In this document: piece by piece, positions 162-14,785 of the stretch
Position numbering within the stretch: the first letter of the stretch is position 1
How the letters are laid out: each line of letters starts with the position of its first letter
Virus record (IMG/VR): IMGVR_UViG_3300041964_000014
Span: 32,001-96,000 of that record
Source: a virus
Reading direction: 5' to 3' (one strand)
Length of the DNA stretch: 64,000 nucleotides
Notes under the pieces: model-generated
What the model was told of the DNA's origin: nothing
What the model saw: only the letters and a program-made list of their open reading frames with translations
The model's database searches: none
Made by a program: the position numbers and the translations under genes

Positions 162-434
162 TTATAGTACTTTAGGTTGTTTTGGTTTCTTGGGTTTCAA
201 GACTTTTGGTGGCTTGAAACTACTTTTAATTTTCTTGGCGGCACTAATACCAGCCCCGACTGCGGCTCCGGCTAACGCTACTTTTCGTTGTGCGCCACCT
301 GAATCAGGTTTAGCAATTAATCCAACTAAAGCGCCAGTACCACCACCACTAACTGCGCCACTAACAGCAGAGCCACCTACTCCAATTAGCTTTTTACGTC
401 TAGTTTTTGGTGCAGTAAACTCACTTAGTAGCAT
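162..434 (-). CDS. small basic glycine-zipper protein, putative internal head protein
   Basis: MLLSEF|TAPKTRRKK then two Gly/Ala hydrophobic stretches and Lys/Pro tail; coupled to neighbour at 434. Confidence 0.65.
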   Translation of the reverse strand: MLLSEFTAPKTRRKKLIGVGGSAVSGAVSGGGTGALVGLIAKPDSGGAQRKVALAGAAVGAGISAAKKIKSSFKPPKVLKPKKPKQPKVL

Positions 435-1002
435 TATTTCTTGTCCTTCTTACGGCGAAGTAGTTTGTAACCTGCTGCTCCAGCTCCACCAGCAGCAGCA
501 GCTCCGGCTAAGATAGCTCCTGCTTTACCCGCTTTAGTACCTAATGCTCCTTTACCAGCATTAGCTAAACGATTTAGTGGTTCACGTAATTTACCTGCAT
601 TAGTTCCACCAGCTCCACTTGGGGTACTAAGACCTGACTTAATAGCCGCTCCAGCAGCAGCAGCAGACCCAAGCGCTCGTTTGCCTAGATTTTTAGCGGC
701 TGCAATATCTTTCTTAGCCACACCTTTAGCCCCACGAGCATTTTTAACTCTGTCAGCAAAAGACTGATCCGAATTCATAGGACGACGTTTGGCTAGCGCA
801 GCTCCGCCGTATCTAGCTCCTGCGGCTCCGGCTGCCCCTAAAGCTCCCAAAGCTCCAGCACCAACAGCCGCCATACCTTTACGTGTCATACGCTTTTCTT
901 GTCTTTAGATCCTTTCTTACGAGCGAAGTTAGCTACATTACTGTAACCCTTCACTCGTTCGAGATCGTCTAAAGAAAAAGCTGCAATTACTGTGTTTGAC
1001 AT
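434..1002 (-). CDS. basic Gly/Ala-rich putative internal head protein (one-base frameshift near 895-900)
   Basis: ATG at 1002 reads MSNTVIAAFSLDDLERVKGYSNVANF|ARKKGSKDKK; adding one A to the A-run joins it to ORF 434..889. Confidence 0.7.
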
Positions 1003-1028
1003 AAACTAATATCCTTTGTAACTAATAG

Positions 1029-2320
1029 TTATATTCTAGGCTTTTTAGGTTTTCTTGGACGTAAAGCAAGTCCAGTACCAATAGCACCAGCTCCCGCAGT
1101 CCCGGCAGCTAATTTACCACCTGTAGTACCCATCCCTTGTCTAACAGCTCCTCCAACTCCAGATAAATTAGATCTCAGTCTACCCTTCCCTTTTGCTTTA
1201 GCGGCTGTCTTAGCTCCAGCAAAACCACCTTTTATAGCTCCCGAAGTATTACCAGCACCTGTAGCTACAGTTTTTAGTAAACCATCTCTTTTAACATTAC
1301 CGACTTGTTTACCAACGCTAGAAACTGCTCTTTTAGCGGTTTTGAAAATAGAACTGCCTATTCCAAAGTTAGCTAGCTTTTCCATATCATCCAGCGTGAA
1401 AGCAGCAACTACTTGAGGTAATTCATAATTAGCCGGAGCTGCTCCTATACGTTGAGACAGTGTACGAGGCATTTGTGTACTTGCTTTCTGAGCAGCTACA
1501 TCTTCTTGCTCGGGAGTAGTTGGTTCTTGGGACTCTTCATCGCCATCTTCCTCAACGCCTAATACTTGCAGTACCCTATTCTCAAAATCGTCTAGCGCTT
1601 TCTCAAACAGTTCTTGTTGATTAATACTTTCATCATCAACAGTAGAATACTGGTAAGTACAACCCATAGTTGATCACTCAGATTATCGTATTGTGTTTTA
1701 ATCTGATCAACCATGCCATCGCCTTGCTCTAACTCCTCGAAAGACAAAGCAAAGGCAGCTTCTCCGTCGTAACTCTTAAATAATCTCAATCCCACAATAG
1801 CTGGTGTACTTGTGCATGAAATTTCTCTAATAGTGTCCGAAATAATATCGATACCGGGCGATACAGTTGATAGCAGTCTGTCCTTATACTGGTTAATTGC
1901 TTTACTCGCCTTGATAGCTACTTGATTAGCAAAAGCCCCAAACTTACCGACTAAGTGTTTGTAGCAAGGATCTTTAATATCTTCGTCTGTAATAACACGA
2001 GCCTCGATAGTACCCTCAACATCTCCAATAGTAGTGTCTTGGGTTTTCTGGTGATCAGTTAGTAGTGGTAAGCGGGCACCTCGTTGTAGTAGTTGGTTGG
2101 TGTTATTAACGATCTTTTTAACACGATCAGCAGAGAAAACGTGCTTACGTTGTTTACTGTCAATGTGTTCTCCTTCTACTAGTACTAAGCCACTTGTGTA
2201 AATAGCGCCATCACTTTCTGTAAATTCAGCGGATAGTGGAGCGCTTTCAAAGTGAACTATCTTAGGAGTACTATTATGTCTAAAATTAGCTATAGTATTT
2301 TTTCTTTTATATTTAGGCAT
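1029..2320 (-). CDS. Mu gpI-like prohead protease with acidic linker and basic C-terminal unit (one-base frameshift near 1640-1648)
   Basis: LPLLTDH...IGDV...TVSPG...EISCTSTPAIVGL pattern of Mu-type head proteases; ORFs 1592..2320 and 1029..1667 join by one base. Confidence 0.65.
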
Positions 2321-2394
2321 ACAGTTTTATATACTCATATAGTAGATACTATCTGTAGTTATACTAAAACTAAGTATACTAATGACGCATAGAC

Positions 2395-2637
2395 ATGACA
2401 AAACGTATCACTAATATAAATAAAGTTATTGGTAGTAAGCTTAAAAAAGCCAGAGACTACCGAGGTTATTCCCAGAGTCAGTTTGGTAAAGTAGTGCATT
2501 TAAATCAAACGCATATTTGCAAAATAGAAACAGGAGAGCGGGGTTTAACTATCGACAATTTAATTGCCTTTAGTAAAGTGCTTAATGTTAGCCCTCTTTA
2601 TTTCCTCAGCGATTTCGAGAAAGATAATCAATCTTGA
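2395..2637 (+). CDS. XRE/Cro-like HTH transcriptional regulator
   Basis: IGSKLKKARDYRGYSQSQFG...ICKIETGER, HTH_3 pattern. Confidence 0.85.
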   Translation: MTKRITNINKVIGSKLKKARDYRGYSQSQFGKVVHLNQTHICKIETGERGLTIDNLIAFSKVLNVSPLYFLSDFEKDNQS

Positions 2638-3863
2638 GATTTAGTACGTCTTATATCGCTTATTTTAGTTTTTAAATTAACCTTACTTTCCTTGTACAAT
2701 CTTTCAGCATTAACTAGCTTCTTTTTAGCAGCCATAAGAGCTTGTTCTTTTTTATTAGCAGGAATGTTACTATTATTTTCGGTCTTATTGTATTTATCTT
2801 TAGTCTCCTTTAGTTTTTGTCGCATTTGTCTTACGTTGCTTATTTCTTCTTTTAAAGAAGTATTGGGCTTAGTATTAACACTTACACGGGGTTTAGATTT
2901 AGGAGTATTAACGGTAATAAGTTTAGGGGGCACGTAGTCTTTGGGTATTACAAAATCTCTAACGACTTTGTTAGTCTCATCTTGCGATAGATAGTGGTAA
3001 GATCCGTGATCTGACATATACCTATCGACTAACTTACCTGGTTTCTTTTGATTATTTTTATTTATTACAACTGCTCCTGGGAATTTGAAAGGCTTGGCTT
3101 GCCAATCATTGTTATCTAATATATGTAATGAATTCTTAGCCGGAGGTAGAATACCATGACTATTAGCTCCATAAGTTATTTGTTTAATCTTGTCAGTATT
3201 AACCCCCATTTCTTTGAGAATATGCATAGCTTCGTTTGTAACATAGCCTCCAGAGCTATGCCCATGCAAAGTATGGATCTTATCTGGGTACTTATCTATA
3301 TTCGCTTTAACAGTAGCTGCTAGTTCACGAGCAGTAGGATTATAACCTTTGAGTATACCTTCTTTAGCCGCAGTGCTAGTTAAATCAAATAATTGTCTAG
3401 CACTATTGCCCGGAGCTTTATCCGGTAGCTTATTCATGCTTCGAGTATCAATAGGAATTGTGTGTCCTTTGAGCTTACTGTGTATATAACTTGACAGTTG
3501 CTTACTACTCTTGGCTTCAGCCCCATAATTCAAACCAGCTACAGCATAATTTATATTCGGACGATTAAGTTCGGCGGTAGTAAGGTTTGCTGGTATAACT
3601 TTTTTGGATAATTCTTGTGCTACTCTAGCGGACTGTTTAAGATTGACTCGATATCGCCCACGAAGTAAAGCATAACCGCCGACACTTAAGCCTAATCCTG
3701 CTGCCGCTACAACTGCTGAATTTCGTAATAAGTTATCAGGCTTTCTGTCTTTACCCCGTCGCTTGTATGCTTTAACTACCCTACCTTTGCGTATACTAGA
3801 TTTTACATTTATCTCTCTGGCAAATTTAGCGTGACTTGCGTCCGAAATAAATAGGGTTTTCAT
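2628..3863 (-). CDS. leader-tagged protein with alpha/beta-hydrolase-like domain
   Basis: MKTLFISD..AKF|AR leader, TM-like segment, nucleophile elbow LHGHSSGG, later D and DH candidates for a catalytic triad. Confidence 0.6.
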   Translation of the reverse strand: MKTLFISDASHAKFAREINVKSSIRKGRVVKAYKRRGKDRKPDNLLRNSAVVAAAGLGLSVGGYALLRGRYRVNLKQSARVAQELSKKVIPANLTTAELNRPNINYAVAGLNYGAEAKSSKQLSSYIHSKLKGHTIPIDTRSMNKLPDKAPGNSARQLFDLTSTAAKEGILKGYNPTARELAATVKANIDKYPDKIHTLHGHSSGGYVTNEAMHILKEMGVNTDKIKQITYGANSHGILPPAKNSLHILDNNDWQAKPFKFPGAVVINKNNQKKPGKLVDRYMSDHGSYHYLSQDETNKVVRDFVIPKDYVPPKLITVNTPKSKPRVSVNTKPNTSLKEEISNVRQMRQKLKETKDKYNKTENNSNIPANKKEQALMAAKKKLVNAERLYKESKVNLKTKISDIRRTKSQD

Positions 3864-4264
3864 TGTTTCTTACCTTTTTCTAGATTCCTAGATACTAAGC
3901 TATATGCCCCATATCCAAGACCTGTTAAAGTTGCACTAGCCAAAGCTCCTTTACTAGCTTTAGTTCTGAGCGTTTTTAGATATATTTGTTTGAGACGTTT
4001 ATTGCTCGGATAAATAATGTGAGCATGGGGATTACCAGCTTTAATAGCTTTAGCTAGATTTTCTTCGTTGTGATCTAATACATATTTGAATCCTTTCCGA
4101 TATCTTAAATGAGTAAGAACTGCACCTCGTGTACCTCCGGCTACAGCACTACCTGCAACTGCTGTACCAAATCCTATTCGTTTGCCACGCTTCTTCTTAT
4201 CTTTACTACCTTTCTTTCTGGCGAAATTAATGTTACCTATGTCCGAAATAAATAAGAGTCTCAT
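3860..4264 (-). CDS. basic glycine-zipper leader-family protein
   Basis: MRLLFISDIGNINF|ARKKGSKDKKKR; C-terminal GLGYGAY shared with neighbour. Confidence 0.75.
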   Translation of the reverse strand: MRLLFISDIGNINFARKKGSKDKKKRGKRIGFGTAVAGSAVAGGTRGAVLTHLRYRKGFKYVLDHNEENLAKAIKAGNPHAHIIYPSNKRLKQIYLKTLRTKASKGALASATLTGLGYGAYSLVSRNLEKGKKQ

Positions 4265-5550
4265 TTGTTGTTCCTCTTATTTCTATTAACTAACTTATAA
4301 GCCCCGTATCCTAATCCCGCTACCGCGCCACCTACTAAAGCACCTTTACCAGATGTCTTAGCTAGCTTTTTAATATAGGCTTGTTTTATCATTTTCCCAC
4401 TAGGAGCTGCTGTGTCAATAGTTCTATCTATTTCGGACAAACTATCCTTTAAATACGATTGTTTAGTAGTTAGTCGTTTAACTTCAGCAGCTACTTTGTC
4501 TTGCTTTTTTTGTTTCAAACTTATATTGTTTTTAGGATCAAACTGTTTGTTTACTTGATCTAATTCTTTTTGTACCGGATTACGAAGACTGCTAATTAAT
4601 CTCTCACGTTGTTTAGGTACAGTCGTTAATGCTTCTTTTAGTTGTTTCCTATCAGTTAGATAATTGGCTCCCGCAGTACTTAAACCCCCAATACCTGCAC
4701 CTCCAGCTATAACTCCAGCACCCTTAACTGCAACCTTACGTTTCTTTTTATCTTTACTTCCCTTTTTACGAGCGAATTCAGCTAATAGTCCGAAATAATA
4801 AGGGGATTGAAATTCGTAAGTATATTTCTGAGGAGTAATAGCCTTAGTGAGTTGTCTACCTGTACTAGTATCGATACTTACAGAAGCTCTAGCTTCACTA
4901 CCTAGATTAAATCCCCCACGCTTTCCTTGTTTGGCAATTTTATTACCACCAATTGTGGCTTGTAAATTAGTCGCAAGTTTTCTACGGTACTCTCTTTCAG
5001 CATTACGCTTGCGTTGCACTTCTTTAGCTAATGCTTCTAATTGCTTACGCTGGGGTGTTTTAATACCTAAAAAACCTACACCTTCATTTTTAGCTAATTG
5101 TACGTTTAATTCTCTACCTTGTAATACGTGTTGATTAGATCTTGCTTGCGAGGCTCTAAGCGGATTTAAATACTCATCTTGATTAGATAGTGTATTAAAT
5201 TTACTACCCTTAACTTTACCTACATCATTAGCAGATACTACTTCGGCTTTAACAGCTTTAATAGTATTACGGCGATTATTAATACGTACTCTACGAGTAC
5301 CTACTTTTACTGTGACTAATTTACCTTTAACTTTACGGGTGTGTTGTTTAACCTGAGTAATACCGCCACTAACTTTGACTGGTTTAGTGGTTTGTTTAGC
5401 TACAGTATTAGCCGCTTTAGCTACTTGCTTAATTATTTGCGGCTTTTTAGTAAGTGCTACTGTTGCCCCTAATCCAGCTACAGTAGCCGCTCCTATACCT
5501 AAGCCTATTAATTTATTACGGTTATTGTTACTCTTACTTTTTGTAGCCAT
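4261..5550 (-). CDS. basic two-unit leader-family protein (possible polyprotein)
   Basis: internal LAEF|ARKKGSKDKKKR; glycine zippers; C-terminal GLGYGAYKL. Confidence 0.7.
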   Translation of the reverse strand: MATKSKSNNNRNKLIGLGIGAATVAGLGATVALTKKPQIIKQVAKAANTVAKQTTKPVKVSGGITQVKQHTRKVKGKLVTVKVGTRRVRINNRRNTIKAVKAEVVSANDVGKVKGSKFNTLSNQDEYLNPLRASQARSNQHVLQGRELNVQLAKNEGVGFLGIKTPQRKQLEALAKEVQRKRNAEREYRRKLATNLQATIGGNKIAKQGKRGGFNLGSEARASVSIDTSTGRQLTKAITPQKYTYEFQSPYYFGLLAEFARKKGSKDKKKRKVAVKGAGVIAGGAGIGGLSTAGANYLTDRKQLKEALTTVPKQRERLISSLRNPVQKELDQVNKQFDPKNNISLKQKKQDKVAAEVKRLTTKQSYLKDSLSEIDRTIDTAAPSGKMIKQAYIKKLAKTSGKGALVGGAVAGLGYGAYKLVNRNKRNNK

Positions 5551-8500
5551 TTACTGTTATTCTCTTCTTTGGCGATAATATACCTAATGTAGCTATATTT
5601 TGTTTAAAATAAGCTGTTTCTATTTCTCTTCTCTGAGTATTTAAATCCCTCAAATAATTATCTATCTCTAAATAACGTGGGTTAGTAGGATTCAATCTTT
5701 GTTGCTCATAAATTAAAGACCCCATCTCTCTAGTTAATTCGTTTAATCTAGACTGCTTTTCTAACTGTCTAGGATTAATAGATAGTTGATCTCTAGCTTT
5801 AGGGCTATTACTTTTAAGCATACTAAGTTCAGCTTGTAAGTTATTAACATCGGCTTCTAACTTACTTAGCGTATCGAATCTACTTTTAACCCTACTAACT
5901 TGTTCTTGCGTAAAAGGTATTATTGTAGGTTGATTATTAATACGTATAGTGGGATTCTGAGTAGCACTACTAAGTAAATCAAAATCTAAGCCTATATCTT
6001 GTGTAGCACTACGTATCTTACTTAGTTCTTCAGAAGCGTTTACTAAATCTTTAATACTCTGTTCATATTCAACGGGATTAGTAGTTGCTTTATTAGCTAT
6101 CCGCTGCTGAACTACCCTAATATATTCTTCTGCTGTATCTAAATTAGTAGATAAAGTAATACGTCCTACAGATGGTTCAAAAATAGTATCAATAAAATTA
6201 AGCTCTTTAGCTTTTTGAGTAAGATAAGCATTAGCAACTTCGGGGTTACTAAGTAAGTTATCTCTAGTGCCTTTTAAAGTATCTCTATATGTTTGTCTAG
6301 TAACTTGAGTATCTAAGATATTGTTATATAGAGTATTAGCTTGATCTGTTAATCGCCTTACTGTAGACGTATTATTAACTAAGTTAGTACTATCTACAAT
6401 ACCGGGGCTTAATTCTTCTGCTACACGATATCGTTGCATAGTATCTTTGGTTTCTTCTAAAGCAGTTTTAGCCGCATTAAGAGTGTTAACCATCTTAATC
6501 TGACTAACACCTAAATCATTAATAGTTTTAGTTACAGTACTAATGTATTTGGTGTAATCACTTAGCAGTGCAGCCTGCAACTTAGTATTACCTTGAGCCG
6601 CCTGGAACCTACTCTCAAACTGCTGTCTTATTATTTCGGACTCCCCAGCTAATACTTGTGCTTTGTTTAACACATTAATATCGTTACCTAAAGCCCGACT
6701 AGCTTCGTTAAGTATCTTGCCGTTACGTCCCCGAATAGTAACACTACTATCAAACTTAGACTTAACAGTTTTAGTGGGATTTTCTAACTGCTCTAATATC
6801 TGATTAGCAGTTTCACGTTCTTGTTCTGTAGCTAAGTTAAGAGTGTCCGAAATATTAGGTGGGGCTTGTAGTTTTAAGCGATTAAAGTCCTCATGTATCA
6901 GCTCAACTAAGTCGTATACCTCGGAGGCTTGTCTAATAACGTTACCGACATCACTATTCTCTAGTCGTTGTAATACGGGACGAGATACGTTTTCTATTAC
7001 ATCGTATAGATTTATTGGTGCTACAGGCGGACGAGTTTTATTAAACATACTATTTAACAAAGCTATCGAGGCTATTGTGGCTCCACCTAATACTGATGCA
7101 GCTGCTAATTTAGCGGCAGTAAGTGGGAATGCTTTAGCTCGACCTTCAACAGGCTCTAAATAACAAGCACAATACGGATGTGGATTAGGCGGCGGTAACA
7201 TTTGTCCTGTCTGAAACAATTTAAATGGATACACTCCTTTTCCGTATCCAATATCTTGATCTGCTAAACGCAAGCATCTATCGCAAACAACTCCAGTACC
7301 ACTGTAGTTACGCTTTAATTTCCCGGACTTACGGCGAGTCTTACTATTATTCATTCGTAGATGTTCTATTGAAGCATTCCATCTAACTAACTCAATAGTG
7401 TTGTCATTAGCATAATGTGCGTAACGCCCGTAGTTATAAGCAGCAGACAGTTCTGTTAATGCTGTTCGTTTAATACTGGGTAATGCAGATCGTCTTTGGC
7501 TTATCTTCTCTAGCTCTTGTCTGGATATAGTTTTTTCTTTCTCCGGAAAGCCTAGTCGTCTAGCTTGTTCGGAGTTTAGCAAGATATCATCATTAAGCTT
7601 ATTTCTCTCTCTATTCAACTCCTTTTGTAGTTGCTCTACTTTCTGAGTATTACCAACTCTCTTATAAGCTTCGAGGCTTCTTTCTAGATTAACTATATTA
7701 TCTTTAACAGCTGTAACAAGGCGTCTTTCTATTTTCTGAGATTTAGTTTCCCGCAGTATTTTTCTAGCCTCAACCCCATAGTCAGGATACATAGAACTTA
7801 ATGCTCGGATTAAGTCCCGTTCTCTAGTATGCTTAGTACTAGCTAAATAGTTACTAATTTTACTACGAGTATTAGCAATACCATCCGTATATTGCTTAAT
7901 ATTTCGCTTAGTGCTATCGGTAATATCTTTAGTAAGCTTTTGCGCTAAGTCGTTATACCGTTTATCGAGATACTGAGCAAATTCAGTTTCGTTAGCTAAC
8001 GTGATAGGTTTCTTAAGCCGTTTGCTTACATCCCTAGTTATTTCGGACTCTTGTATTCTCCTCGCACGTATTGCACTACTCGTTTTAGATAGTGAAGATG
8101 ATGTGGGTGTTAGTGGGCGTAATAGAGTTTGTTGCCTACGTTCCGCTTGTTGTTCTGCTGCGGATACTCTTTTAGCTTGTGTTCTAGCACGTTTTTCTTG
8201 TTGCAGCTGTCTAACATCATCACGACTAAGCATATCCAACTGTTTAGGTGGAGCTACTGATTCTCCACTTGCAGCTCTAGATAATTGGTATACTAAAGCA
8301 TTTTGTTTTTGTTTTAGTTGATTTTGTTCGGCTTTAATACTATTCGCTTGTTCGGTAAGTATGTTAACTACGGTATTTCTTTGATCGGGGTTTAAGTTCG
8401 ATTGTCTTAGTCTTACTTTCGCGTACCTATCCGGATTAATAATATCCCGATTTAACTGCTCTAATCTAGAGGCATTATCTTCTTGCTTATAAATAAGAGA

Positions 8501-8890
8501 CTGTATCTGATCTCTTAAACGCTTTATAGTATTATCGTTATCTTTGGCAAAAGTAATTAGTTGTACAGCATCGCTAAAATTACGTTTAGTTATATTATCG
8601 TAAATAGGCTTTAAATCTTCACGAGCATCTGTACTACCTATATTCCAACTGCTTTCCCATAACTGTTTTATGGCACTATATAGTACTGGGCGTACTTGAT
8701 TAGGTTTTATATTGTCTATTAGTTGCTGCCAAGTAGCATCTCTATTTTTAAGTACTGTGTTAGCAAAGTACGTATTGTAGTGTTTTTGTATATGGTTAAT
8801 AAACGTATCACTAATAGGGTTTAGTGTGTCTAGTATCTTTCGTGCTTTAGATGTGGATTTACTAGCTGTTTCTAGATTAATAACTACCAT
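5534..8890 (-). CDS. very large MuF-like (SPP1 gp7-like) minor head protein with coiled-coil extensions
   Basis: RTALTELSAAYNYGR...VRWNAS...VCDRC...PPPNPHPYCAC matches the Phage_Mu_F signature. Confidence 0.75.
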   Translation of the reverse strand: MVVINLETASKSTSKARKILDTLNPISDTFINHIQKHYNTYFANTVLKNRDATWQQLIDNIKPNQVRPVLYSAIKQLWESSWNIGSTDAREDLKPIYDNITKRNFSDAVQLITFAKDNDNTIKRLRDQIQSLIYKQEDNASRLEQLNRDIINPDRYAKVRLRQSNLNPDQRNTVVNILTEQANSIKAEQNQLKQKQNALVYQLSRAASGESVAPPKQLDMLSRDDVRQLQQEKRARTQAKRVSAAEQQAERRQQTLLRPLTPTSSSLSKTSSAIRARRIQESEITRDVSKRLKKPITLANETEFAQYLDKRYNDLAQKLTKDITDSTKRNIKQYTDGIANTRSKISNYLASTKHTRERDLIRALSSMYPDYGVEARKILRETKSQKIERRLVTAVKDNIVNLERSLEAYKRVGNTQKVEQLQKELNRERNKLNDDILLNSEQARRLGFPEKEKTISRQELEKISQRRSALPSIKRTALTELSAAYNYGRYAHYANDNTIELVRWNASIEHLRMNNSKTRRKSGKLKRNYSGTGVVCDRCLRLADQDIGYGKGVYPFKLFQTGQMLPPPNPHPYCACYLEPVEGRAKAFPLTAAKLAAASVLGGATIASIALLNSMFNKTRPPVAPINLYDVIENVSRPVLQRLENSDVGNVIRQASEVYDLVELIHEDFNRLKLQAPPNISDTLNLATEQERETANQILEQLENPTKTVKSKFDSSVTIRGRNGKILNEASRALGNDINVLNKAQVLAGESEIIRQQFESRFQAAQGNTKLQAALLSDYTKYISTVTKTINDLGVSQIKMVNTLNAAKTALEETKDTMQRYRVAEELSPGIVDSTNLVNNTSTVRRLTDQANTLYNNILDTQVTRQTYRDTLKGTRDNLLSNPEVANAYLTQKAKELNFIDTIFEPSVGRITLSTNLDTAEEYIRVVQQRIANKATTNPVEYEQSIKDLVNASEELSKIRSATQDIGLDFDLLSSATQNPTIRINNQPTIIPFTQEQVSRVKSRFDTLSKLEADVNNLQAELSMLKSNSPKARDQLSINPRQLEKQSRLNELTREMGSLIYEQQRLNPTNPRYLEIDNYLRDLNTQRREIETAYFKQNIATLGILSPKKRITVNGYKK

Positions 8891-9020
8891 ATGCTATTGA
8901 GTATAGATAGTACTATTATTACAGCTTACTAACCAATATAAAATAAGATAGTTTACTAAGCATATCCATATGTACAGGTATTGTTGCTAAAATAGCAAGT
9001 AACACTATCTCGTATAAATT

Positions 9021-9371
9021 ATGGAACTTAGAGTAAACGACAAAACGTTAGAAGATATTGCTTGTGATATCCAAGAGTCTTATTACACTAAATTTGGTGT
9101 AACTATTGGACGCAATAAGATCCGCTACATTATCAAAGACTATCTGAGATACGTAGAGGAGGAAGTTGCCAAAGGTAACAAAGTAACTATTCAAGGTCAC
9201 GGTACTTACGATTCTTATGAGTACAAGGAACGTACTGGAATTGATCCTACCAAGCAAGAGCAGTTTTATATCGAAACTCACGACGTACCTACATGGCGCA
9301 GTGGGAAAACTTTTCGCCGTAAGGTAAGAGCAGCTTCACTCGAACGCCGCAATAAAGAAAATGCTGGTTGA
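9021..9371 (+). CDS. hup: HU/IHF-like DNA-binding protein
   Basis: GNKVTIQGHGTY...ERTGIDPT...VPTWRSGKTFR resembles HU beta-ribbon arms. Confidence 0.8.
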   Translation: MELRVNDKTLEDIACDIQESYYTKFGVTIGRNKIRYIIKDYLRYVEEEVAKGNKVTIQGHGTYDSYEYKERTGIDPTKQEQFYIETHDVPTWRSGKTFRRKVRAASLERRNKENAG

Positions 9372-9397
9372 TTAACTGTTATAAATATTGATTAAGA

Positions 9398-9441
9398 GTC
9401 CGAAATAATAAGGAAATTCTCACTCCCTATTTATTTCGGAC
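9398..9441. repeat. inverted pair of the genome-wide GTCCGAAA motif
   Basis: gtccgaaataataagg ... cctatttatttcggac between convergent genes. Confidence 0.9.
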
Positions 9442-9525
9442 TTTTACTATGCATATAATAAAAGCCCTTAACCTGTAGAGAGTGGTTAAAGGCATGACTG
9501 AGGTTCTTTGTCTACTTACTTGATA

Positions 9526-10404
9526 TTATAGTTCGTTAAATAAACAGCTGTAGTACGGGTCTAATTTAATAGTGTTTAAATGGTCTTGTTGATATCGCCA
9601 CTTACGCTTAAGTCCTTTTATAAAATAACTATGTGCTAATTCTTTTATAGTAATAGCACTAACTTGGTTATGAGTAGTATCAACTAAACGTATAACTTCG
9701 GGGCTTATATTATATGGGCTTAAGAATATTAGTTTAGCGGACTTATTAGGATAAGCTTGTTGTTGCAGTATTTCAAAATAACCTCGCTTACATATAGCAG
9801 TAGTAATATCGTCTACAGTAATAGGATTCTTTTTAAGCTCATAAGCTTCGATAGTTTTAGAGGTATTACGGTAGAAATCAAATCTACGCTTATCTTTGTT
9901 AAGTAGGTTTAGTATAGGGTGTTCAATATTAATATTACTATAACCACATAAACACATCCAACTATGTAGTCGTCTAGCCAAATCAGCTTCCATTTCTGGC
10001 TGTAAAGGGATAGCGTTGAGTTTTAAGTGATTTCGATTATACCAATATTGCTTTTCTTTTAATAACTCGTTAATACGATTTCCAGCTCTTTGAACATACT
10101 CCGCAGTTATTCTTGCCATAAATATTTGAAAAGGAACAGCTTTGGGTTGTTCGGATTTCTGAAGTAAAAGAAAGCACTGCTCCATACTCAAGTAGTCCAT
10201 TTTATACCTCTTGCCGTTAGAAGCAACTTTCTCCGCAACGAGGAAAGTACCAGAAGCCCCTTCTATAAAGGGTTTTAGCTTAGACCATATTTTACTGGGA
10301 TTGCTATATTCCAAGGCTGTTAATATGTCTTGTGCTGAGTAGTAGAATTGCCCGTCCTTATATATGTGACGTATTTCGTAGTTTTCAAATTGCTTGACTA
10401 ACAT
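9526..10404 (-). CDS. Bro-N domain protein with C-terminal PD-(D/E)XK-like domain
   Basis: FENYEIR...FYYSAQDILTALEYSN...KSEQPKAVPFQ (Bro-N); RFDFY...EAYELK nuclease-like motif. Confidence 0.7.
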   Translation of the reverse strand: MLVKQFENYEIRHIYKDGQFYYSAQDILTALEYSNPSKIWSKLKPFIEGASGTFLVAEKVASNGKRYKMDYLSMEQCFLLLQKSEQPKAVPFQIFMARITAEYVQRAGNRINELLKEKQYWYNRNHLKLNAIPLQPEMEADLARRLHSWMCLCGYSNINIEHPILNLLNKDKRRFDFYRNTSKTIEAYELKKNPITVDDITTAICKRGYFEILQQQAYPNKSAKLIFLSPYNISPEVIRLVDTTHNQVSAITIKELAHSYFIKGLKRKWRYQQDHLNTIKLDPYYSCLFNEL

Positions 10405-10476
10405 AGGTAATTATCTAACTTGTTAACGCTATACTGAAATAGTAACACAAGGTAAGAACAGATAGGTACAGTTAAT

Positions 10477-10844
10477 ATGGCTTCTGAAAATAGTATAACT
10501 ATCGGAGTAAGCGATGCGTTCAAAGAAAAACTACTAACCTTAGCTAAACACGAGAATAGAACACTGTCTGCGTATATTAAAAATATCTTAGAAACGCATT
10601 AAAAAAATACGAAGCTCCCGACTGGTTAGGCTTTCCTTTTGATCCTGAAGGAACATACTCTGCTCCAGTAATATCTCCAGATACTTTAGAAGAGTCCGAA
10701 ACAATAAATGCACTGAAACAAGCGCAACACATTAACAAGATTATCCAACAAGACCACCGGGCGAGTTTAGATACACTACAACAACAACTCGATACTTTGT
10801 TTGACGAGATAGCCCGCCTTAAGCAGATAGTTAGTAGTAAGTGA
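10477..10844 (+). CDS. ribbon-helix-helix (CopG/Arc-like) protein, probable one-base frameshift at ~10600
   Basis: MASENSITIGVSDAFKEKLLTLAKHENRTLSAYIKNILE to TAA 10602; another frame stays open to TGA 10844; not in the ORF track. Confidence 0.6.
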
Positions 10845-10846
10845 TC

Positions 10847-11398
10847 TTATTGTTTCGGACTCTTTGTTGATTTATTTTCTTGTTTACTAATCTGATGTTT
10901 TCTAAGCGCTTTTGCACCTAAACCGATACCTACACCTATAGCTGCTCCTACTGCAATTCTTGGGGCAGCTTTTTTAACGTGTCTAAAATAATTAGCTTTT
11001 ACTTTAACTGGTTCTTGAAAAATCTTGCGTTGATTATCGGCAAATTCTTGTTTAGCTTGTTCGGCGTAAGTACTAGCTGTCCGCTGGTCGATTCCTCCCA
11101 TCTTTAATTGATGTAACGTATCTCCATAAACCTTCATAGAGTCTTTATCGAGATCAGATAGAAAGGTTTGTCTTACTTTCTCGGCAGCTTTATTAGCATT
11201 TTCAGTGCCTTTTCTTTCTGTAAATATTCCCCTAGCTAGCTTGGGAATACCTCCTGACAAGAATGCTCCGTTTATTCCTAACCCAACAATCGCTCCAGCT
11301 CCTATAGTTTTAGCCGTTTTACGTTTACGCTTATCCTTACTACCTTTCTTTCTAGCGAATGTAGTAAGAGTATGTATGTCCGAAATAAATAGGCTCAT
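10847..11398 (-). CDS. basic glycine-zipper leader-family protein
   Basis: likely start MSLFISDIHTLTTF|ARKKGSKDKRKR at 11398. Confidence 0.75.
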   Translation of the reverse strand: MSLFISDIHTLTTFARKKGSKDKRKRKTAKTIGAGAIVGLGINGAFLSGGIPKLARGIFTERKGTENANKAAEKVRQTFLSDLDKDSMKVYGDTLHQLKMGGIDQRTASTYAEQAKQEFADNQRKIFQEPVKVKANYFRHVKKAAPRIAVGAAIGVGIGLGAKALRKHQISKQENKSTKSPKQ

Positions 11399-11425
11399 GT
11401 AATTTAAAATATATCTATTATATAT

Positions 11426-11635
11426 TTGCATACTACTATGAAACCGGATTACGTTACTAAGCTAGGTATTGTAAAACTATTAACCACTAACGGCGACTTT
11501 AAACATATAGTTAAAGTAAACGATGTATTGTATTACGATGATAAGCCTATTAATACTGATTTCTTTTATGAGGAGTTTCAACGAAACAACGAAGTGTATG
11601 TAGATAAAGACGTGTTTATAGATACGCTAAAATAG
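11426..11635 (+). CDS. small hypothetical, paralog of 11648..11881
   Basis: VKVNDVLYYDDKP...VFIDTL shared pattern. Confidence 0.55.
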   Translation: MHTTMKPDYVTKLGIVKLLTTNGDFKHIVKVNDVLYYDDKPINTDFFYEEFQRNNEVYVDKDVFIDTLK

Positions 11636-11647
11636 TAGCTAATATTA

Positions 11648-11881
11648 ATGCTAACTTATAATCCTTTAACTACGATTACTGATAGTGCACTTATCCATAC
11701 AGTACTACGTGCTAATAATGAGAAATCTAAGATTAAGTTAGTTAATGGTATTTTATTTAGAGAGAATAAACCTTTTAAGATTACTGACTACGTAACTAAC
11801 TTTAATTTATTACACGGAACTAGCATTAGTGTTGAGGTGTTTTTGGATACCCTTATACAGATTGCTAGATCTAACTCTTAG
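11648..11881 (+). CDS. small hypothetical, paralog of 11426..11635 and of the C-terminus of 14282..14785
   Basis: KLVNGILFRENKP...VEVFLDTLIQIARSN. Confidence 0.55.
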   Translation: MLTYNPLTTITDSALIHTVLRANNEKSKIKLVNGILFRENKPFKITDYVTNFNLLHGTSISVEVFLDTLIQIARSNS

Positions 11882-12669
11882 CAAATGCAATAATACACTG
11901 CTCTAATAGCATTGCTTGTTGTACAGTACTACTACTAAAACTAATCAAGTTATTAAACATACTTAAACTATTATCAGTTAATTTTTGAGCAGCTTCGGGG
12001 CTTAATTCAAACTCAAAATCATAAGGTTGTCCTATAGATTAAAACCTAGTTTACGATAAAACGATACTGCGTTAGGTAGTGCAGTTAATCGTAACTTACC
12101 ACCATATCCTTCGTTAATACTTTCTTCTATTAAATGTAGTAGTGCAGTAGTACCAGCACCAGAATACTCATTAGCATTAGTAAGCTTATTAGGGTTAGCT
12201 ACTAAGTTCTCGATATAAATAGCTTTATTTTTACTATCGTTATACACAGTAGCCATAGCCCCTACTTTGTTGTTAACACTAATACTCCTAAACTTATTAG
12301 GCTGTTTTTAATCTCGTTAGTTATATTGTCAATAATAGTACGTGTATCGTCGTAATCTACTAACTGTTGTTTAGTAGGTTTAATGTACTGTATAGTTTTA
12401 TTCCAACTAAGTAGTTCTTCTTTAGCTGCGTAATTAAACCTAGTATTATACCCACTACTTAAGTAATCGAAAGCCTTTGCTGGTTTATCTACTTTAGATA
12501 CCGTAGTTTGAGCAGTATTATGTATAACTTTTTTATTACGGCTAATTCCCCGCACACAACTACGTACAGTACGTCCTTTACGAATATAGCTATTAACACG
12601 TATTTGTTTAAGCCCCGACATCCCTACACGAAATTGTGCTGTAGTAGTTATATCACTAATAAAGAACAT
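11871..12669 (-). CDS. leader-tagged GNAT acetyltransferase (two one-base frameshifts, ~12306 and ~12040)
   Basis: MFFISDITTTAQF|R leader; YIENLVANP...YSGAGTTAL...LTALPNAVSFYRKLGF GNAT motifs A/B; frames join at short A-runs. Confidence 0.7.
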
Positions 12670-12676
12670 ACACTTA

Positions 12677-13132
12677 TTATTTCGGACGTTTTATTTCGTA
12701 TTTATTAACCATATGCTTACCCGCATTGTATTGCTTAATTTCTTTACGTCTCGATAAGTATTTGCTAACCCCTAGAGCAACTCCTAATCCGGCTCCAGCT
12801 ACAGCGGCTTTAGGAGCGATATGTTTTCCAGCTTTAACAACCAAATCTTTCATATCTTTTGGAGAGATTTGTAACTTAACATTTTGTTTTTTAGCTTGGG
12901 ACATACCTTGCGCTAATGCTAATCCGGTTAAACCTGCTGTGCCGACTACAGCTCCCGTTGCTGCACCTACCACAGTTCTCTTTATTACAGGCTCCCTCAG
13001 TGTGACATTACGTTTACCTGTCTTAGTATTAAGTTCTCCCTTAAGAAATTTATTCAACTTACTTTGTCTTTTCTTTTTATCTTTAGAACCTTTTTTACGG
13101 GCAAACTGAGCTACATCGCTGAGGTAATACAT
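12677..13132 (-). CDS. basic glycine-zipper leader-family protein
   Basis: likely start MYYLSDVAQF|ARKKGSKDKKKR at 13132. Confidence 0.75.
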   Translation of the reverse strand: MYYLSDVAQFARKKGSKDKKKRQSKLNKFLKGELNTKTGKRNVTLREPVIKRTVVGAATGAVVGTAGLTGLALAQGMSQAKKQNVKLQISPKDMKDLVVKAGKHIAPKAAVAGAGLGVALGVSKYLSRRKEIKQYNAGKHMVNKYEIKRPK

Positions 13133-13351
13133 AGAAGTTACACAAGCACTATTATTACTAATTAGTTTAACACTGCACACAGTTTAACTTAATCTAGCGT
13201 AGTAGTTGGGAAGATACATAGTTGTTACACAGTAATAAAGGGAGTCACCACAATATACGTTTATTATGCCCAGACCCTGATTTTTGTAGATTTCTGTGAT
13301 TATCACTAAATATATATTATAATAAACCTAGTACCGTGATAATGTATATAT

Positions 13352-14281
13352 ATGTTAGAACCTAGTTATAGCTTTAGTTTCGATGACGATTTAAAGTTAT
13401 CATATGCATATGAAATAACAATGTTAGACGCTAATATTTCGGGTAGTGAATTGTTAGGCGGATTATTTCCTCGAGGAAAAGTAAGCAGCTTAGTAGCTGA
13501 AGGCGGAGTAGGGAAAACTTTTGTGCTGGTAGCTAGTAGTTTGGCTGTCACTAGCAATCAACCGTTTTTACCAGATTCGGATAGTACCAACCAGCTCAAA
13601 GTATTACTAATAGATACGGAAGGCAGATTAAGGGAGTTTGTTAGACGTGTAGATATATTCAACGGTAATCGAGCTAACTACTACACTCCTAAGCATCCTC
13701 TAGAAATATGTACCTTTTCTAACGAAACAGATAGAGTAGTAATCGAAAAGACAATAGTAGCTAAAGACATTGGGTTAGTTATAGTAGATAGTTTTGCTGG
13801 TTTTAGTAATGTAGACGAAAATACTAATGCAGTATTGCCCGCACTACAATGGCTTAGTAGTTTAGCACTTAAATACAATACTGCAATTGTATTTACTCAA
13901 TTAGTTAATAAGTCCGAAAACAAAAATAACCGAATTACAACTAAAAGTGTTAGGGGATTTAGTGGTATTACACAATGGTGTGAAATGGTATGGGCATTAG
14001 ACAAACCTACTGCCGATAAAACTATGCGGAGATTGTATCAGATTAAAAATAACGTTACAGAAGAAGATCCCACTGATTATTTATTTAAGATTCAAAACAA
14101 TCAGATACTATGGCAAACAACGAATAACACTACTAAACATCAGAGGCGTTTTGAATTAATGAGTAATAATCCTAAACTGTCTAATAAGGAAATTGCTAAA
14201 CTAATTCAACAAGAAGAACCCGATATGAAATTAGGAAGTATTGAAATGTGGATAAGCCGTAATCGTAATAAGAGTAACTAG
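13352..14281 (+). CDS. RecA-fold AAA_25 (RepA-like) ATPase/helicase
   Basis: Walker A AEGGVGKT, LLIDTEG, Walker B LVIVDS, RGFSG motif. Confidence 0.8.
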   Translation: MLEPSYSFSFDDDLKLSYAYEITMLDANISGSELLGGLFPRGKVSSLVAEGGVGKTFVLVASSLAVTSNQPFLPDSDSTNQLKVLLIDTEGRLREFVRRVDIFNGNRANYYTPKHPLEICTFSNETDRVVIEKTIVAKDIGLVIVDSFAGFSNVDENTNAVLPALQWLSSLALKYNTAIVFTQLVNKSENKNNRITTKSVRGFSGITQWCEMVWALDKPTADKTMRRLYQIKNNVTEEDPTDYLFKIQNNQILWQTTNNTTKHQRRFELMSNNPKLSNKEIAKLIQQEEPDMKLGSIEMWISRNRNKSN

Positions 14282-14785
14282 ATGATCTACTTTATAACAG
14301 AAGAAGGTAATTTAGATTATATTAAAATAGGTTTTACAGATAATGAGGATGTTAGGTTACGTATTGCTACTTTACAAACAGGTAATCCACGTAAACTAAT
14401 ATTAGTAAAAGCTATTGAAGGTACGTATGAACATGAACAAGCCCTACATTTGTTATTTGCTAATGATAAGATAAGGGGTGAGTGGTTTATTTACTCAGAA
14501 GATATTAAACGGTATTTAGCCACAACTCCAGATCTACCTCCATATAGAAAACCATATCAAAAGCTTGGATTAACTGCGACTATTATGTTAATGGAGGAAC
14601 TTAATATACATACTCTGTACACATACCACTACGGACTTAAATCAGTACTTGTAGATGGCAGACCCTTAGATCCTAAATTCGATAGTATGGATTTTAGATA
14701 TAAGAGTAAAGTAGAAGTTAGCTATAGAGTATTCCATGAAGCTTGCGAGTATTGGGCAATAAAAAATACGCCAAAGACTGAGTAA
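14282..14785 (+). CDS. T5orf172/MUG113 (GIY-YIG-like) domain protein
   Basis: IYFI...IKIGFT...RIATLQTGNP...EQALH...RGEWF. Confidence 0.85.
   Translation: MIYFITEEGNLDYIKIGFTDNEDVRLRIATLQTGNPRKLILVKAIEGTYEHEQALHLLFANDKIRGEWFIYSEDIKRYLATTPDLPPYRKPYQKLGLTATIMLMEELNIHTLYTYHYGLKSVLVDGRPLDPKFDSMDFRYKSKVEVSYRVFHEACEYWAIKNTPKTE

What the first reader, a model, noticed from the sequence alone, without database searches (positions are those of the whole stretch)
162..13132. Family of at least 9 head-module proteins sharing a cleavable-looking leader (..FISD-x5-6-F|ARKKGSKDKKKR): a candidate capsid-targeting and cargo system
Seen: LSEF|TAPK (434), VANF|ARKKGSKDKK (1002), LANF|GIG (inside protease), HAKF|AR (3863), NINF|ARKKGSKDKKKR (4264), LAEF|ARKKGSKDKKKR (internal in 4261..5550), NFSD..LITF|AK (MuF), LTTF|ARKKGSKDKRKR (11398), TAQF|R (12669), VAQF|ARKKGSKDKKKR (13132). 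Downstream parts are Lys/Arg-rich with glycine-zipper helices but otherwise unrelated. All lie beside a prohead protease. Known: T4 internal proteins use a short N-terminal capsid-targeting sequence removed by the prohead protease. Inference: this is an analogous but sequence-unrelated address tag cleaved after Phe. It would load DNA-binding, membrane-active and enzymatic cargo into the head for ejection, and might be reusable as a protein-packaging tag.
Basis: partly seen in the sequence, partly recalled or inferred. Interest (0 to 1): 0.82.

Follow-up and report, generated by a model that had tools for sequence, protein, structure and literature searches.

The report
Shared cleavage module on cyanophage proteins
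A group of uncultured cyanobacterial viruses puts the same short sequence block (a small cap ending in Phe, then Ala-Arg-Lys-Lys-Gly-Ser-Lys-Asp-Lys-Lys-Lys-Arg and a greasy helix) at the front of, or between, a dozen otherwise unrelated basic proteins per genome, most likely as a cutting site for the virus's own capsid protease; nobody has yet shown the cut.

Summary
The window has five exact F-ARKKGSKDK copies (0 expected by chance). Including weaker sites it has 11 sites in 10 genes, and the 111-kb genome has about 17. The same module occurs in at least 169 protein clusters and beside 32 of 36 homologous proteases in IMG/VR.

I read it as a maturation site of the phage's own capsid protease, which has the herpesvirus-assemblin fold. 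Cleavage after Phe is inferred from six lines:
- An invariant F-A-L lies in a disordered linker right after the protease domain in all 16 homologs.
- There are 58 internal "polyprotein" sites.
- Seven proteins start exactly at M-ARxxGSKDK.
- Three gene fusions or fissions fall at the motif.
- A-x-F-[AGS] is depleted about 4-fold inside the mature parts.
- The P-side motif persists in Pseudanabaena phages PA-SR01 and Pam2, where such proteins are virion components.

Leaders can be 0-5 residues long, and the invariant part lies after the cut.

Part of "LFISD" coincides with a genome-wide DNA word, but the peptide is selected in its own right. A host Prp/L27-type route is unlikely, because the hosts are cyanobacteria and no Prp is present.

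Two genes here, including the protease, carry 1-nt frameshifts. The scan noted the same leader family in an overlapping window and a look-alike lipase on another genome. No proteomics exists for these phages.

The parts
1029..2320 (-). Capsid maturation (prohead) serine protease gene with an acidic helical middle part and a Gly/Lys-rich tail. In this assembly it is split into ORFs 1592-2320 and 1029-1667 by a 1-nt loss at about 1643. Candidate self-cleavage sites are EAAF|ALS (Phe codon 1751-1753) and LANF|GIG (1365-1367). The invariant His codon starts at 2053 and the Ser codon at 1861.
   Evidence: The gene shares 32% identity with the PA-SR01 Mu-I-like protein. It forms one open frame of 390-550 aa in 15 homologs. 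In alignment A2 the DH, S-P-G-I-D and E-x-S-x-T..P-A-I motifs and F-A-L are invariant. The AF2 model of the G1 ortholog matches herpesvirus assemblins (1vzv: Z 10.6, rmsd 2.9 A over 115 residues), and the top 31 rows are all herpesvirus proteases. The frameshift was placed.
434..1005 (-). Leader-bearing Gly/Ala-rich basic protein: start 1002, ...AAFSLDDLERVKGYSNVANF|ARKKGSKDKK.... It is split by a 1-nt loss in an A-run at about 894-897 into a 38-aa leader ORF (886-1005) and body ORF 434-889.
   Evidence: The G1, G3 and G4 orthologs are single 196-200-aa ORFs reading ...ANF|ARKKGSKDKKKRMSKGG....
162..434 (-). 90-aa basic Gly-rich protein with a short cap, MLLSEF|TAPKTRRKK. It is a weak member with no ARKKG core.
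   Evidence: The G1 ortholog starts MLLSEATF|ATS....
2628..3863 (-). 411-aa member: MKTLFISDASHAKF|AREINVKSSIRKGR..., then a hydrophobic helix and an alpha/beta-hydrolase-like domain (GHSSGG).
   Evidence: Lipase_3 scores E 6e-4 and 20.2 bits, below the 22-bit cut-off. The G1 ortholog is 71% identical and encodes LFISD with other codons, TCA GAT.
3860..4264 (-). 134-aa member: MRLLFISDIGNINF|ARKKGSKDKKKR..., with a Gly-rich helix and a C-terminal helix shared with 4261-5550.
   Evidence: The G1 ortholog is 63% identical.
4261..5550 (-). 429-aa two-unit protein with an internal site, ...YYFGLLAEF|ARKKGSKDKKKRK... (Phe codon 4774-4776). Each unit starts with a basic stretch followed by a Gly-zipper helix.
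5534..8890 (-). 1118-aa MuF-like minor head protein with a leader-type site at residue 114, RNFSDAVQLITF|AKDNDN (Phe codon 8549-8551).
   Evidence: The site is conserved in the G1 (45% identity) and G2 orthologs: KRFNEQLNLATF|A and AKFTTNNELAEF|A. Pfam Phage_Mu_F hits only the G2 ortholog, at E 3e-15. It gives no hit in this protein.
10847..11398 (-). 183-aa member: MSLFISDIHTLTTF|ARKKGSKDKRKRK..., with two Gly-zipper helices.
12262..12669 (-). 135-aa member with the leader but a different basic segment: MFFISDITTTAQF|RVGMSGLKQIRVNSYIRKGR.... FISD is encoded here by TTT ATT AGT GAT, without the genome-wide DNA word.
12677..13132 (-). 151-aa member: MYYLSDVAQF|ARKKGSKDKKKRQSKLNKFLKGELN..., with two Gly-zipper helices.
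   Evidence: It is orthologous to the second, internal unit of the 305-aa G1 protein G1+16285.

Best explanation
The shared block is a maturation module read by the phage's own assemblin-fold prohead serine protease (window 1029-2320). I split it into three elements.

1. A short, variable cap. It is often M-x-[FYL]-[IL]-S-D-h-x(2-5) and always ends h-[A/S/I/V]-x-F.
2. The scissile bond F|A.
3. A retained, nearly invariant basic N-terminus, A-R-x-x-G-[SA]-K-D-K-x-x-R-K. It is followed about 16 residues after the cut by a Gly/Ala-rich hydrophobic helix.

The module sits at N-termini as a propeptide. It also sits between units of about 130 aa, as a polyprotein linker. In addition it occurs twice in the protease polypeptide itself and once in the MuF-like protein.

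The products are very basic small proteins. They are most likely internal head or ejection proteins released inside the procapsid.

Shown here: the module, its distribution, its peptide-level selection, the protease fold, and the comparative signatures. Inferred: the cut itself, which protease makes it, and packaging. Speculative: that the basic 13-mer binds DNA or the acidic scaffold and acts as the real loading element, and that the Gly-zipper helices act on the host membrane at entry.
For: 1. Autoprocessing position. F187-A188-L189 is invariant in 16 protease homologs that are only 32-98% identical. It lies directly after the protease domain, in a segment AF2 models as disordered (pLDDT below 50 for residues 179-198). 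A second conserved site, AAFTLDEMEKLAEF|G, precedes the basic Gly-rich tail.

2. Distribution. A leader profile finds 169 proteins at E<=1e-3 among 1.84 billion representatives. In the best 150 there are 180 sites: 122 N-terminal and 58 internal, with 32 proteins carrying more than one site. P1 is F in 93%, P1' is A in 86% and P3 is A in 53%.

3. Leaderless starts. Seven proteins start exactly at M|ARxxGSKDK, which is the predicted mature end.

4. Fusion and fission. In three G0/G1 ortholog pairs a stand-alone gene with an N-terminal leader in one phage is the internal second unit of a longer protein in the other.

5. Avoidance. [AISV]-x-F-[AGS] occurs 7 times in 21,171 residues of mature bodies, against about 25 expected (z -3.8). 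The same context with L, I, V or Y is enriched 1.3-1.6 fold.

6. Co-occurrence. Core sites lie within 10 kb of 32 of 36 IMG/VR loci that encode a homologous protease. The other four loci, and PA-SR01/Pam2, keep the P-side A-[NE]-F|[AGSN] but have other prime sides.

7. Virion presence in a cultured relative. Pam2 gp15 and gp17 lie next to its protease and start MSLKAEF|A and ..LLKKAEF|AQ. Both were detected in virions by mass spectrometry (PMC9382816 Table S2).

8. Protease identity. The domain has the assemblin fold, Z 10.6, with invariant His and Ser motifs.

9. Peptide-level selection. Synonymous codon variation, including AGY/TCN serine switches, is seen in both the core and the FISD/YLSD part.
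Against: - There is no proteomic or biochemical datum for any member. Cleavage, P1 = Phe specificity and packaging are all inferred.
- The strongest conservation lies on the prime side, which is unusual for a mere cleavage site. It means the block has a second, unknown function.
- From my own knowledge, characterised prohead or assemblin proteases cut after Glu (T4, giant phages) or Ala (herpesviruses), not Phe.
- A second, ClpP-like protease gene lies in the same region in G0 and G1. It cannot be excluded for these two genomes.
- Several window members lack the basic core (162-434, 2628-3863, 12262-12669 and the MuF-like protein).
- A basic stretch followed by a hydrophobic helix is also what a membrane anchor looks like.
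- In this assembly the protease gene is frameshifted.
- The shuffle control for motif avoidance ignores local composition.
Confidence: 0.55

Rival explanations
1. The N-terminal leader (M..FISD..F) is itself the capsid-targeting address, as in the T4 internal proteins. It is removed after delivery, and the rest is passive cargo.
For: - The leader is shared by otherwise unrelated proteins.
- The [FYL][IL]SD part is kept by peptide-level selection, also in lineages that lack the GTCCGAAA DNA word.
- Most leaders are 10-16 residues long, similar to the T4 capsid-targeting sequence (PMC3012670).
Against: - Seven proteins have no leader beyond Met, and 31 have only 3-7 residues.
- G2-type leaders lack FISD.
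- The invariant residues are all downstream of Phe.
- Internal sites are preceded by a whole protein unit, so they are not at a free N-terminus.
Confidence: 0.2
2. The block is not cleaved. It is a positively charged juxtamembrane segment plus a signal-anchor helix. It inserts these proteins into the membrane of the infected cell, for example for lysis, exclusion or an assembly site. The conserved upstream Phe belongs to that fold.
For: - 147 of 180 units have a hydrophobic 17-mer starting about 16 residues after the motif.
- The bodies are very basic and Gly/Ala-rich.
- No member of this genome has been shown in virions.
Against: This reading does not explain:
- the invariant F-A-L after the protease domain;
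- the starts at exactly M|A;
- the fusion/fission equivalence;
- the F-specific avoidance of A-x-F-[AGS].

Also, the positional counterparts in Pam2 are virion proteins.
Confidence: 0.15
3. The motif mimics the N-terminal extension of ribosomal protein L27 and is cut by a Prp-type cysteine protease. This would follow the capsid and scaffold proteins of Staphylococcus phage 80alpha.
For: The likeness is striking. The L27 motif is MLxx(D/N)LQ(F/L)F'A(S/H)KK (PMC9405229). Here we have MYYLSDVAQF'ARKKG, with D at P5, F at P1, A at P1' and K-K-G after it.
Against: - No Peptidase_Prp gene is found in G0-G4, including the 99%-complete G1.
- Long L27 and Prp are reported for Firmicutes, Tenericutes and Fusobacteria. 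The Synechococcus control genome has no Prp.
- The group looks cyanophage. HIP1 occurs 139 times in G2 and is abundant in four other loci. The nearest isolates are Pseudanabaena and Nodularia phages.
Confidence: 0.04
4. The repeat is a DNA-level feature, either the genome-wide GTCCGAAAYAAYAAG word or a recombination cassette. The peptide is then only its footprint.
For: - LLFISD is encoded by CTCCTATTTATTTCGGAC, the reverse complement of a word present 101 times in 111 kb.
- The same word gives YYFGL at the internal site 4776, and MSEINS in the opposite orientation.
Against: - The core FARKKGSKDK is encoded with varied codons.
- FISD/YLSD is also encoded without the word: AGT GAT, TCA GAT, AGC GAT.
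- The peptide persists in about 25 loci and in G2, all of which lack the word.
Confidence: 0.03

Closest known systems
T4 internal proteins (IPI-III, Alt) with the N-terminal capsid-targeting sequence removed by prohead protease gp21 (PMC3012670; Mullaney & Black 1996, as cited in PMC10052503)
   Same: Diverse, mostly basic internal proteins share only a short N-terminal sequence. The capsid protease is thought to remove it inside the prohead.
   Different: - There is no sequence likeness.
- P1 is Phe here. In T4 it is Glu (my own knowledge).
- The conserved part here is mainly after the cut.
- Sites also occur internally, as polyprotein linkers.
- Leaders may be absent.
- Targeting has not been tested.
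Giant-phage head maturation (phiKZ, 201phi2-1, SPN3US gp245; PMC10052503, PMC5694885)
   Same: One prohead protease cuts many head and ejection proteins, and itself, at a short consensus. It removes N-terminal propeptides.
   Different: - The motif there is A-x-E with propeptides of 20-254 residues.
- The phages here are about 110-130 kb with a lambda-E-type capsid protein.
- The giant-phage cleavages are proven by mass spectrometry. These are not.
Prp / ribosomal protein L27 N-terminal extension, used by Staphylococcus phage 80alpha capsid and scaffold proteins (PMC9405229, PMC5744158)
   Same: A short N-terminal cap ends in Phe, is cut before Ala, and is followed by a basic K-K-G. The same motif is shared by several phage head proteins.
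   Different: - The protease there is a host cysteine protease, absent here.
- The hosts here are cyanobacteria.
- 80alpha has two substrates. There are 13-17 sites per genome here, including internal ones.
Pseudanabaena phages PA-SR01 and Pam2 (head module with a Mu-I-like protease)
   Same: - They have a homologous protease (32% identity) and a homologous capsid protein (31%).
- Gly-rich proteins downstream carry N-terminal and internal (R)K(S/A)A(N/E)F| motifs.
- Pam2 gp15 and gp17 are virion proteins.
   Different: - They have no ARKKGSKDKKKR block and no FISD.
- The motif was not noted in the passages of those papers that I searched (PMC10286775, PMC9382816).

Membership tests
Assemblin-fold (HK97 gp4 / Mu gpI type) prohead serine protease | Herpesvirus-assemblin / prohead-protease fold | tested here: met
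   In the AF2 model of the G1 ortholog, residues 31-183 have pLDDT 73-94. The best match is VZV protease 1vzv (Z 10.6, rmsd 2.9 A over 115 residues). The top 31 rows are all herpesvirus proteases. Foldseek probability reaches 0.98, though E is only about 0.01.
Assemblin-fold (HK97 gp4 / Mu gpI type) prohead serine protease | Conserved catalytic His and Ser | tested here: met
   D85-H86 and S150-P-G-I-D are invariant in 16 homologs. In the window these are His 90 and Ser 154 of ORF 1592-2320. Their catalytic role is inferred from position and was not assayed.
Assemblin-fold (HK97 gp4 / Mu gpI type) prohead serine protease | Match to the curated family models (Pfam Mu-like_Pro PF10123; PHROG head maturation protease) | tested here: inconclusive
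   PF10123 gives no hit at E<=1 in G0-G2, and Pfam gives no hit for the ORF. PHROG 976 'head maturation protease' scores E 5.6e-5. The PA-SR01 homolog was assigned to PF10123 by HHpred in PMC10286775.
Assemblin-fold (HK97 gp4 / Mu gpI type) prohead serine protease | Gene lies in the head module between the MuF/portal side and the scaffold/capsid genes, with a C-terminal scaffold-like extension | tested here: met
   The gene order is MuF-like, members, protease, members, acidic 320-aa protein, 284-aa protein, then the capsid protein (phrog_29). Residues 198-254 are modelled as a long helix, and the tail is basic and Gly-rich.
T4-type capsid-targeting sequence (CTS) | Short N-terminal sequence shared by otherwise unrelated internal proteins | tested here: met
   
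T4-type capsid-targeting sequence (CTS) | The shared N-terminal peptide is necessary and sufficient for loading into the prohead | not testable with these tools
   This needs reporter fusions. Leaderless members (7) and very short caps (31 of 3-7 residues) argue against necessity.
T4-type capsid-targeting sequence (CTS) | Removed by the prohead protease at its consensus site | not testable with these tools
   There is only comparative support. The complex-prediction job gave no answer and is listed under Tried and rejected.
Prp / long-L27 type leader (as in phage 80alpha) | Motif MLxx(D/N)LQ(F/L)F'A(S/H)KK | tested here: inconclusive
   The likeness is partial: D at P5 in the shortest leaders, F'A, then R-K-K-G. 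The motif was taken from PMC9405229 and compared by eye with alignment A1.
Prp / long-L27 type leader (as in phage 80alpha) | A Prp (PF04327) protease is available in the phage or host | tested here: not met
   There is no PF04327 match in G0-G4. The cyanobacterial control genome (Synechococcus elongatus) does not match, while Bacillus, Lactococcus and Thermotoga do. The true host genome was not available.
MuF / SPP1 gp7 minor head protein (window 5534-8890) | Pfam Phage_Mu_F domain | tested here: inconclusive
   There is no hit in the G0 or G1 protein. The alignable 1109-aa G2 counterpart hits at E 3e-15.

The most novel reading that the evidence does not exclude
The retained N-terminal 13-mer (A-R-x-x-G-S/A-K-D-K-x-x-R-K), exposed only after the capsid protease removes its cap, would be a portable loading and DNA-tethering tag. 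With it this cyanophage group would fill its heads with a dozen modular, polyprotein-encoded membrane-active proteins. This would be a cargo system built on a different logic from T4's removable address. It could be reused to package foreign proteins.
Probability: 0.25. Interest if true: 0.75.

Novelty: new variant of a known kind. Interest (0 to 1): 0.6.

Why it matters
Internal head and ejection proteins are the least understood parts of tailed phages, and almost nothing is known about them for freshwater cyanophages.

If the reading holds, it gives three things:
- a readable sequence rule (h-A-x-F|A-R-x-x-G-S-K-D-K-x-x-R-K) that marks 13-17 such proteins or units per genome in a whole group of uncultured phages;
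- a predicted specificity for an uncharacterised branch of assemblin-fold proteases;
- a candidate tag for loading proteins into capsids.

It can be tested directly in the cultured relatives Pam2 and PA-SR01, whose virion mass-spectrometry data already exist.

Tried and rejected
- Complex prediction. Protease domain (A2, residues 28-200) with the leader alignment (A1) scored 0.02 against a mark of 0.32. The verdict was 'no answer', so it counts neither for nor against.
I used the search for related loci instead.
- Host search, core pattern. The degenerate F-ARKKGSKDK DNA pattern has no match in 185,579 species genomes, so no prophage relatives were found.
- Host search, iterated word. The 17-mer AGTCCGAAATAATAAGG gives only 39 scattered single hits in unrelated taxa, which is chance level. 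The word is therefore not a visible host signature, and the host of this genome stays unidentified.
- Family searches. Pfam and PHROGs found nothing for most members. Among ten long leader-bearing representatives no enzymatic domain was found. One, P0074, is a eukaryotic JmjC protein and a false positive caused by Lys-rich repeats.
- Short-motif enrichment. [AT][NQES]F and F[AG][RK] are only mildly enriched in the module compared with the rest of the proteome, so they are uninformative on their own.
- Literature. The string KKGSKDK occurs in one unrelated paper.
- ClpP-like second protease (genome 24919-25422, + strand). I rejected it as the general processing enzyme because it is found only in the G0/G1 lineage.
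- tRNA scan of the window found none.

Full report
**What the window is.**
The window is bases 32001-96000 of a 111,188-bp IMG/VR virus record, estimated 76% complete. The finding lies in the late, minus-strand region. I laid the whole genome in the script box and fetched the 32 kb upstream as L001 and L002.

The surrounding genes are as follows:
- The large terminase is at window 14846-16459.
- A lambda-E-type major capsid protein lies just outside the window, at genome 29129-30286 (phrog_29, E 6e-18).
- The nearest cultured relatives for the capsid protein are the Pseudanabaena cyanophages PA-SR01 and Pam2, at 31% identity.
- Among 50,697 isolated phages, only those two have a homolog of the protease.
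- The best hits for the DNA polymerase are Nodularia cyanophages.
- A relative carrying the same motif (G2) has 139 copies of HIP1 (GCGATCGC), the cyanobacterial hallmark. Four further related loci are also HIP1-rich.

The host of this particular genome was not identified.

**The observation.**
All ten listed sites exist. The DNA pattern for F-A-R-K-K-G-S-K-D-K occurs five times in the window, with no match in any of 100 shuffles. A sixth copy lies outside the window.

A profile built from the leaders finds 14 strong sites in the genome. Seven lie outside the window, including a second, internal site in the 312-aa protein at genome 14431-15369. There is also one weak site on the plus strand. 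With the weaker window sites the total is about 17.

Bodies are strongly basic (net +12 to +63) and Gly/Ala-rich, with Gly-zipper-like hydrophobic segments. Apart from a few local similarities they are unrelated.

Two corrections matter:
- The 38-aa ORF ending ...VANF|ARKKGSKDKKSV* (886-1005) and ORF 434-889 are one gene, broken by the loss of one A in an A-run at about 894-897. The orthologs in three relatives are single ORFs of 196-200 aa reading ...ANF|ARKKGSKDKKKRMSKGG....
- The 'protease' ORF 1592-2320 and the overlapping ORF 1029-1667 are also one gene. All 15 database homologs are 335-550 aa (all but one 390 aa or more) with no stop, and the frames switch at about 1643.

The genome shows at least five such frame breaks relative to its 99%-complete relative. 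An assembly error is therefore more likely than biology.

**DNA word or peptide?**
In six genes 'LFISD' is encoded by ...CTATTTATTTCGGAC.... This is the reverse complement of a word, GTCCGAAAYAAYAAG, whose 8-mer core occurs 101 times in 111 kb against about 2.7 expected. The same word in another frame gives YYFGL at the internal site 4776. In the opposite orientation it gives MSEINS at genome 15691.

This could have meant that part of the 'leader' is only a DNA footprint. It is not:
- MFFISD (12669) and the MYYLSD leaders encode the same peptide with other codons.
- The serine switches between the AGY and TCN codon families.
- The G1 ortholog of the hydrolase-like gene uses TCA GAT where this genome uses TCG GAC.
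- About 25 related loci with no copy of the word still have M-x-[FILY]-L-S-D-...-F|A-R.

The simplest reading is that the genome-wide word is placed wherever a peptide allows it, and the leaders allow it. The core F-ARKKGSKDKKKR is encoded with freely varying synonymous codons.

**How wide the family is.**
The exact DNA pattern finds four other IMG/VR contigs. One is 127 kb and 99% complete (G1), with 13 sites. One is 83 kb (G2), with at least 6 sites.

A profile of 23 leader regions (A1) was run against 1.84 billion representative proteins and found 169 proteins at E<=1e-3. The best 150 gave the following:

| Feature | Result |
|---|---|
| Sites | 180 (122 within the first 30 residues, 58 internal) |
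| Proteins with more than one site | 32 |
| P4 | L/I/T/V |
| P3 | A 53% |
| P2 | E/N/T |
| P1 | F 93% |
| P1' | A 86% |
| P2' | R 100% |
| P5' | G 100% |
| P6' | S/A |
| P8' | D 99% |
| P12' | R 98% |

Further properties:
- Units between sites have a median length of 132 aa.
- 147 of 180 units have a hydrophobic 17-mer starting about 16 residues after the Phe.
- Leader length is 1 (Met only) in 7 proteins, 3-7 in 31, and 10-16 in 70.
- G2-type leaders lack FISD altogether (MSKLARF|ARPKGAKDKKKRK).

**Which protease?**
The gene at 1029-2320 has invariant D-H, S-P-G-I-D and E-x-S-x-T..P-A-I motifs across 16 homologs. An AF2 model of the intact G1 ortholog has a confident domain at residues 31-183. 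It matches herpesvirus assemblins: VZV protease at Z 10.6, with the top 31 rows all herpesvirus proteases. This is the fold of tailed-phage prohead proteases.

Pfam's Mu-like_Pro model does not hit it. PHROG 976 does, weakly. The PA-SR01 homolog was assigned to that Pfam family by HHpred (PMC10286775).

Directly after the domain, F-A-L is invariant (xAxF|AL(S/T)F(D/E)ELE), in a stretch modelled as disordered. A second conserved site, AAFTLDEMEKLAEF|G, precedes the basic Gly-rich tail. Self-release at such a position is what prohead proteases commonly do; SPN3US gp245 removes its own C-terminal propeptide (PMC10052503).

Of 36 IMG/VR loci with a homologous protease, 32 have core sites within 10 kb. 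The other four, and PA-SR01/Pam2, keep the P-side A-[NE]-F|[AGSN] with different prime sides. The P side therefore tracks the protease family, and the basic 13-mer is a lineage-specific addition.

A ClpP-like gene on the opposite strand (genome 24919-25422) is confined to the G0/G1 lineage. No Prp gene is present in any of five genomes.

**Comparative signs of cleavage.**
- Seven proteins begin M|A-R-x-x-G-S-K-D-K, exactly at the predicted mature end. In at least one case a stop codon lies three codons upstream.
- Three G0/G1 ortholog pairs differ by fusion or fission exactly at the module. Unit 2 of the 312-aa protein at genome 14431-15369 is the stand-alone G1 gene at 37263. The stand-alone gene at genome 15419-15691 is unit 2 of G1 39538. 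Window 12677-13132 is unit 2 of G1 16285. Fused and split forms are equivalent only if the junction is cut.
- Inside 173 mature bodies (21,171 residues), [AISV]-x-F-[AGS] occurs 7 times against about 25 expected (z -3.8). The same context with L, I, V or Y is enriched 1.3-1.6 fold. F-[AGS] alone is not depleted.
- The MuF-like protein keeps a leader-type site at about residue 114 in three genomes that are otherwise 25-45% identical.
- In Pam2, the proteins next to the protease that carry the A-E-F|A motif (gp15, gp17) were found in virions by mass spectrometry (PMC9382816 Table S2).

**Interpretation.**
I conclude that the block is a maturation module: a small cap, cleavage F|A by the phage's assemblin-fold protease, and a retained basic N-terminus followed by a Gly-zipper helix. 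It is used both as a propeptide and as a polyprotein linker. The products are probably internal head or ejection proteins.

The cut, the enzyme and the packaging are inferred, not shown. The element most likely to carry a loading or DNA-binding function, however, is the invariant 13-mer that stays on the protein, not the removable cap.

The resemblance to the L27/Prp motif, MLxx(D/N)LQ(F/L)F'A(S/H)KK (PMC9405229), is striking. But Prp is absent from the phages and from the cyanobacterial control genome. I treat the resemblance as convergent or coincidental.

**Novelty.**
Processing of many head proteins by one prohead protease at a short consensus is known for T4, phiKZ-like phages, SPN3US and P1. 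What is new here:
- the specificity, with Phe at P1;
- the invariant prime-side block;
- the polyprotein use;
- the number of substrates;
- the phage group.

I found no description of it in the literature searched. The scan itself had noted the same leader family in an overlapping window, and a look-alike tagged lipase on another genome.

Noticed in passing
whole genome; in the window e.g. 3840, 4241, 4788, 11378: The word GTCCGAAA(Y)AA(Y)AAG occurs 101 times in 111 kb (52 on +, 49 on -), about 38-fold over expectation, and 85 times in relative G1. Relative G2 instead has 139 HIP1 sites. The word overlaps the LFISD codons of six leader genes. It is not enriched in any of 185,579 species genomes (39 scattered single hits).
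   Followed up: partly
window ~894-897, ~1643, ~41893-42000, ~61021-61036; genome ~111152: There are apparent 1-nt frame breaks relative to the 99%-complete relative G1. Two fall in essential head genes. They are most likely assembly or sequencing errors.
   Followed up: partly
L002:4919-5422 (+), genome 24919-25422, outside the window: A 167-aa ClpP-like 'head maturation protease' (PHROG 94, E 3e-14) lies on the strand opposite to the structural genes, between two leader genes. It is conserved in G1 (47%) but absent from G2 and the other related loci.
   Followed up: partly
window 2628-3863, 12262-12669; G1 20995 (L016:995-...): A second basic motif, V-K-S-S-[IV]-R-K-G-[KR]-[IV]-V-K-[AG]-Y, follows F|A in the hydrolase-like member. 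It also occurs in 12262-12669 (VNSYIRKGRTVR) and at the start of a 533-aa G1 protein. It is unexplained.
   Followed up: no
window 12032-12256 (-): A 74-aa GNAT acetyltransferase C-terminal fragment (below Pfam cut-offs) starts 5 nt after the stop of leader gene 12262-12669, in another frame. It may be a leader-tagged acetyltransferase broken by another frameshift.
   Followed up: no
L002:10317-11171 (-), genome 30317-31171: The 284-aa protein between the acidic scaffold-like gene and the capsid gene starts MLNRQRYNADPQIVAF|ADMQEAP. This is conserved in G1 (..PQIIAF|ADMQEAP), and its Pam2 counterpart gp19 is a virion protein. It may be a further substrate.
   Followed up: no
L001:8573-8767 (+): A 64-aa plus-strand ORF starts MYYLSDINTIEF|KASKG. 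It has the leader but not the basic core, and it lies outside the structural block.
   Followed up: no
L055 (IMGVR_UViG_3300032431_000003) 11941-14490: A distant relative has at least six tandem small paralogs starting MAYTLLDAAYEMYYPEAEF|G.. right after its protease. This is the same two-part cap without the ARKKG block.
   Followed up: no
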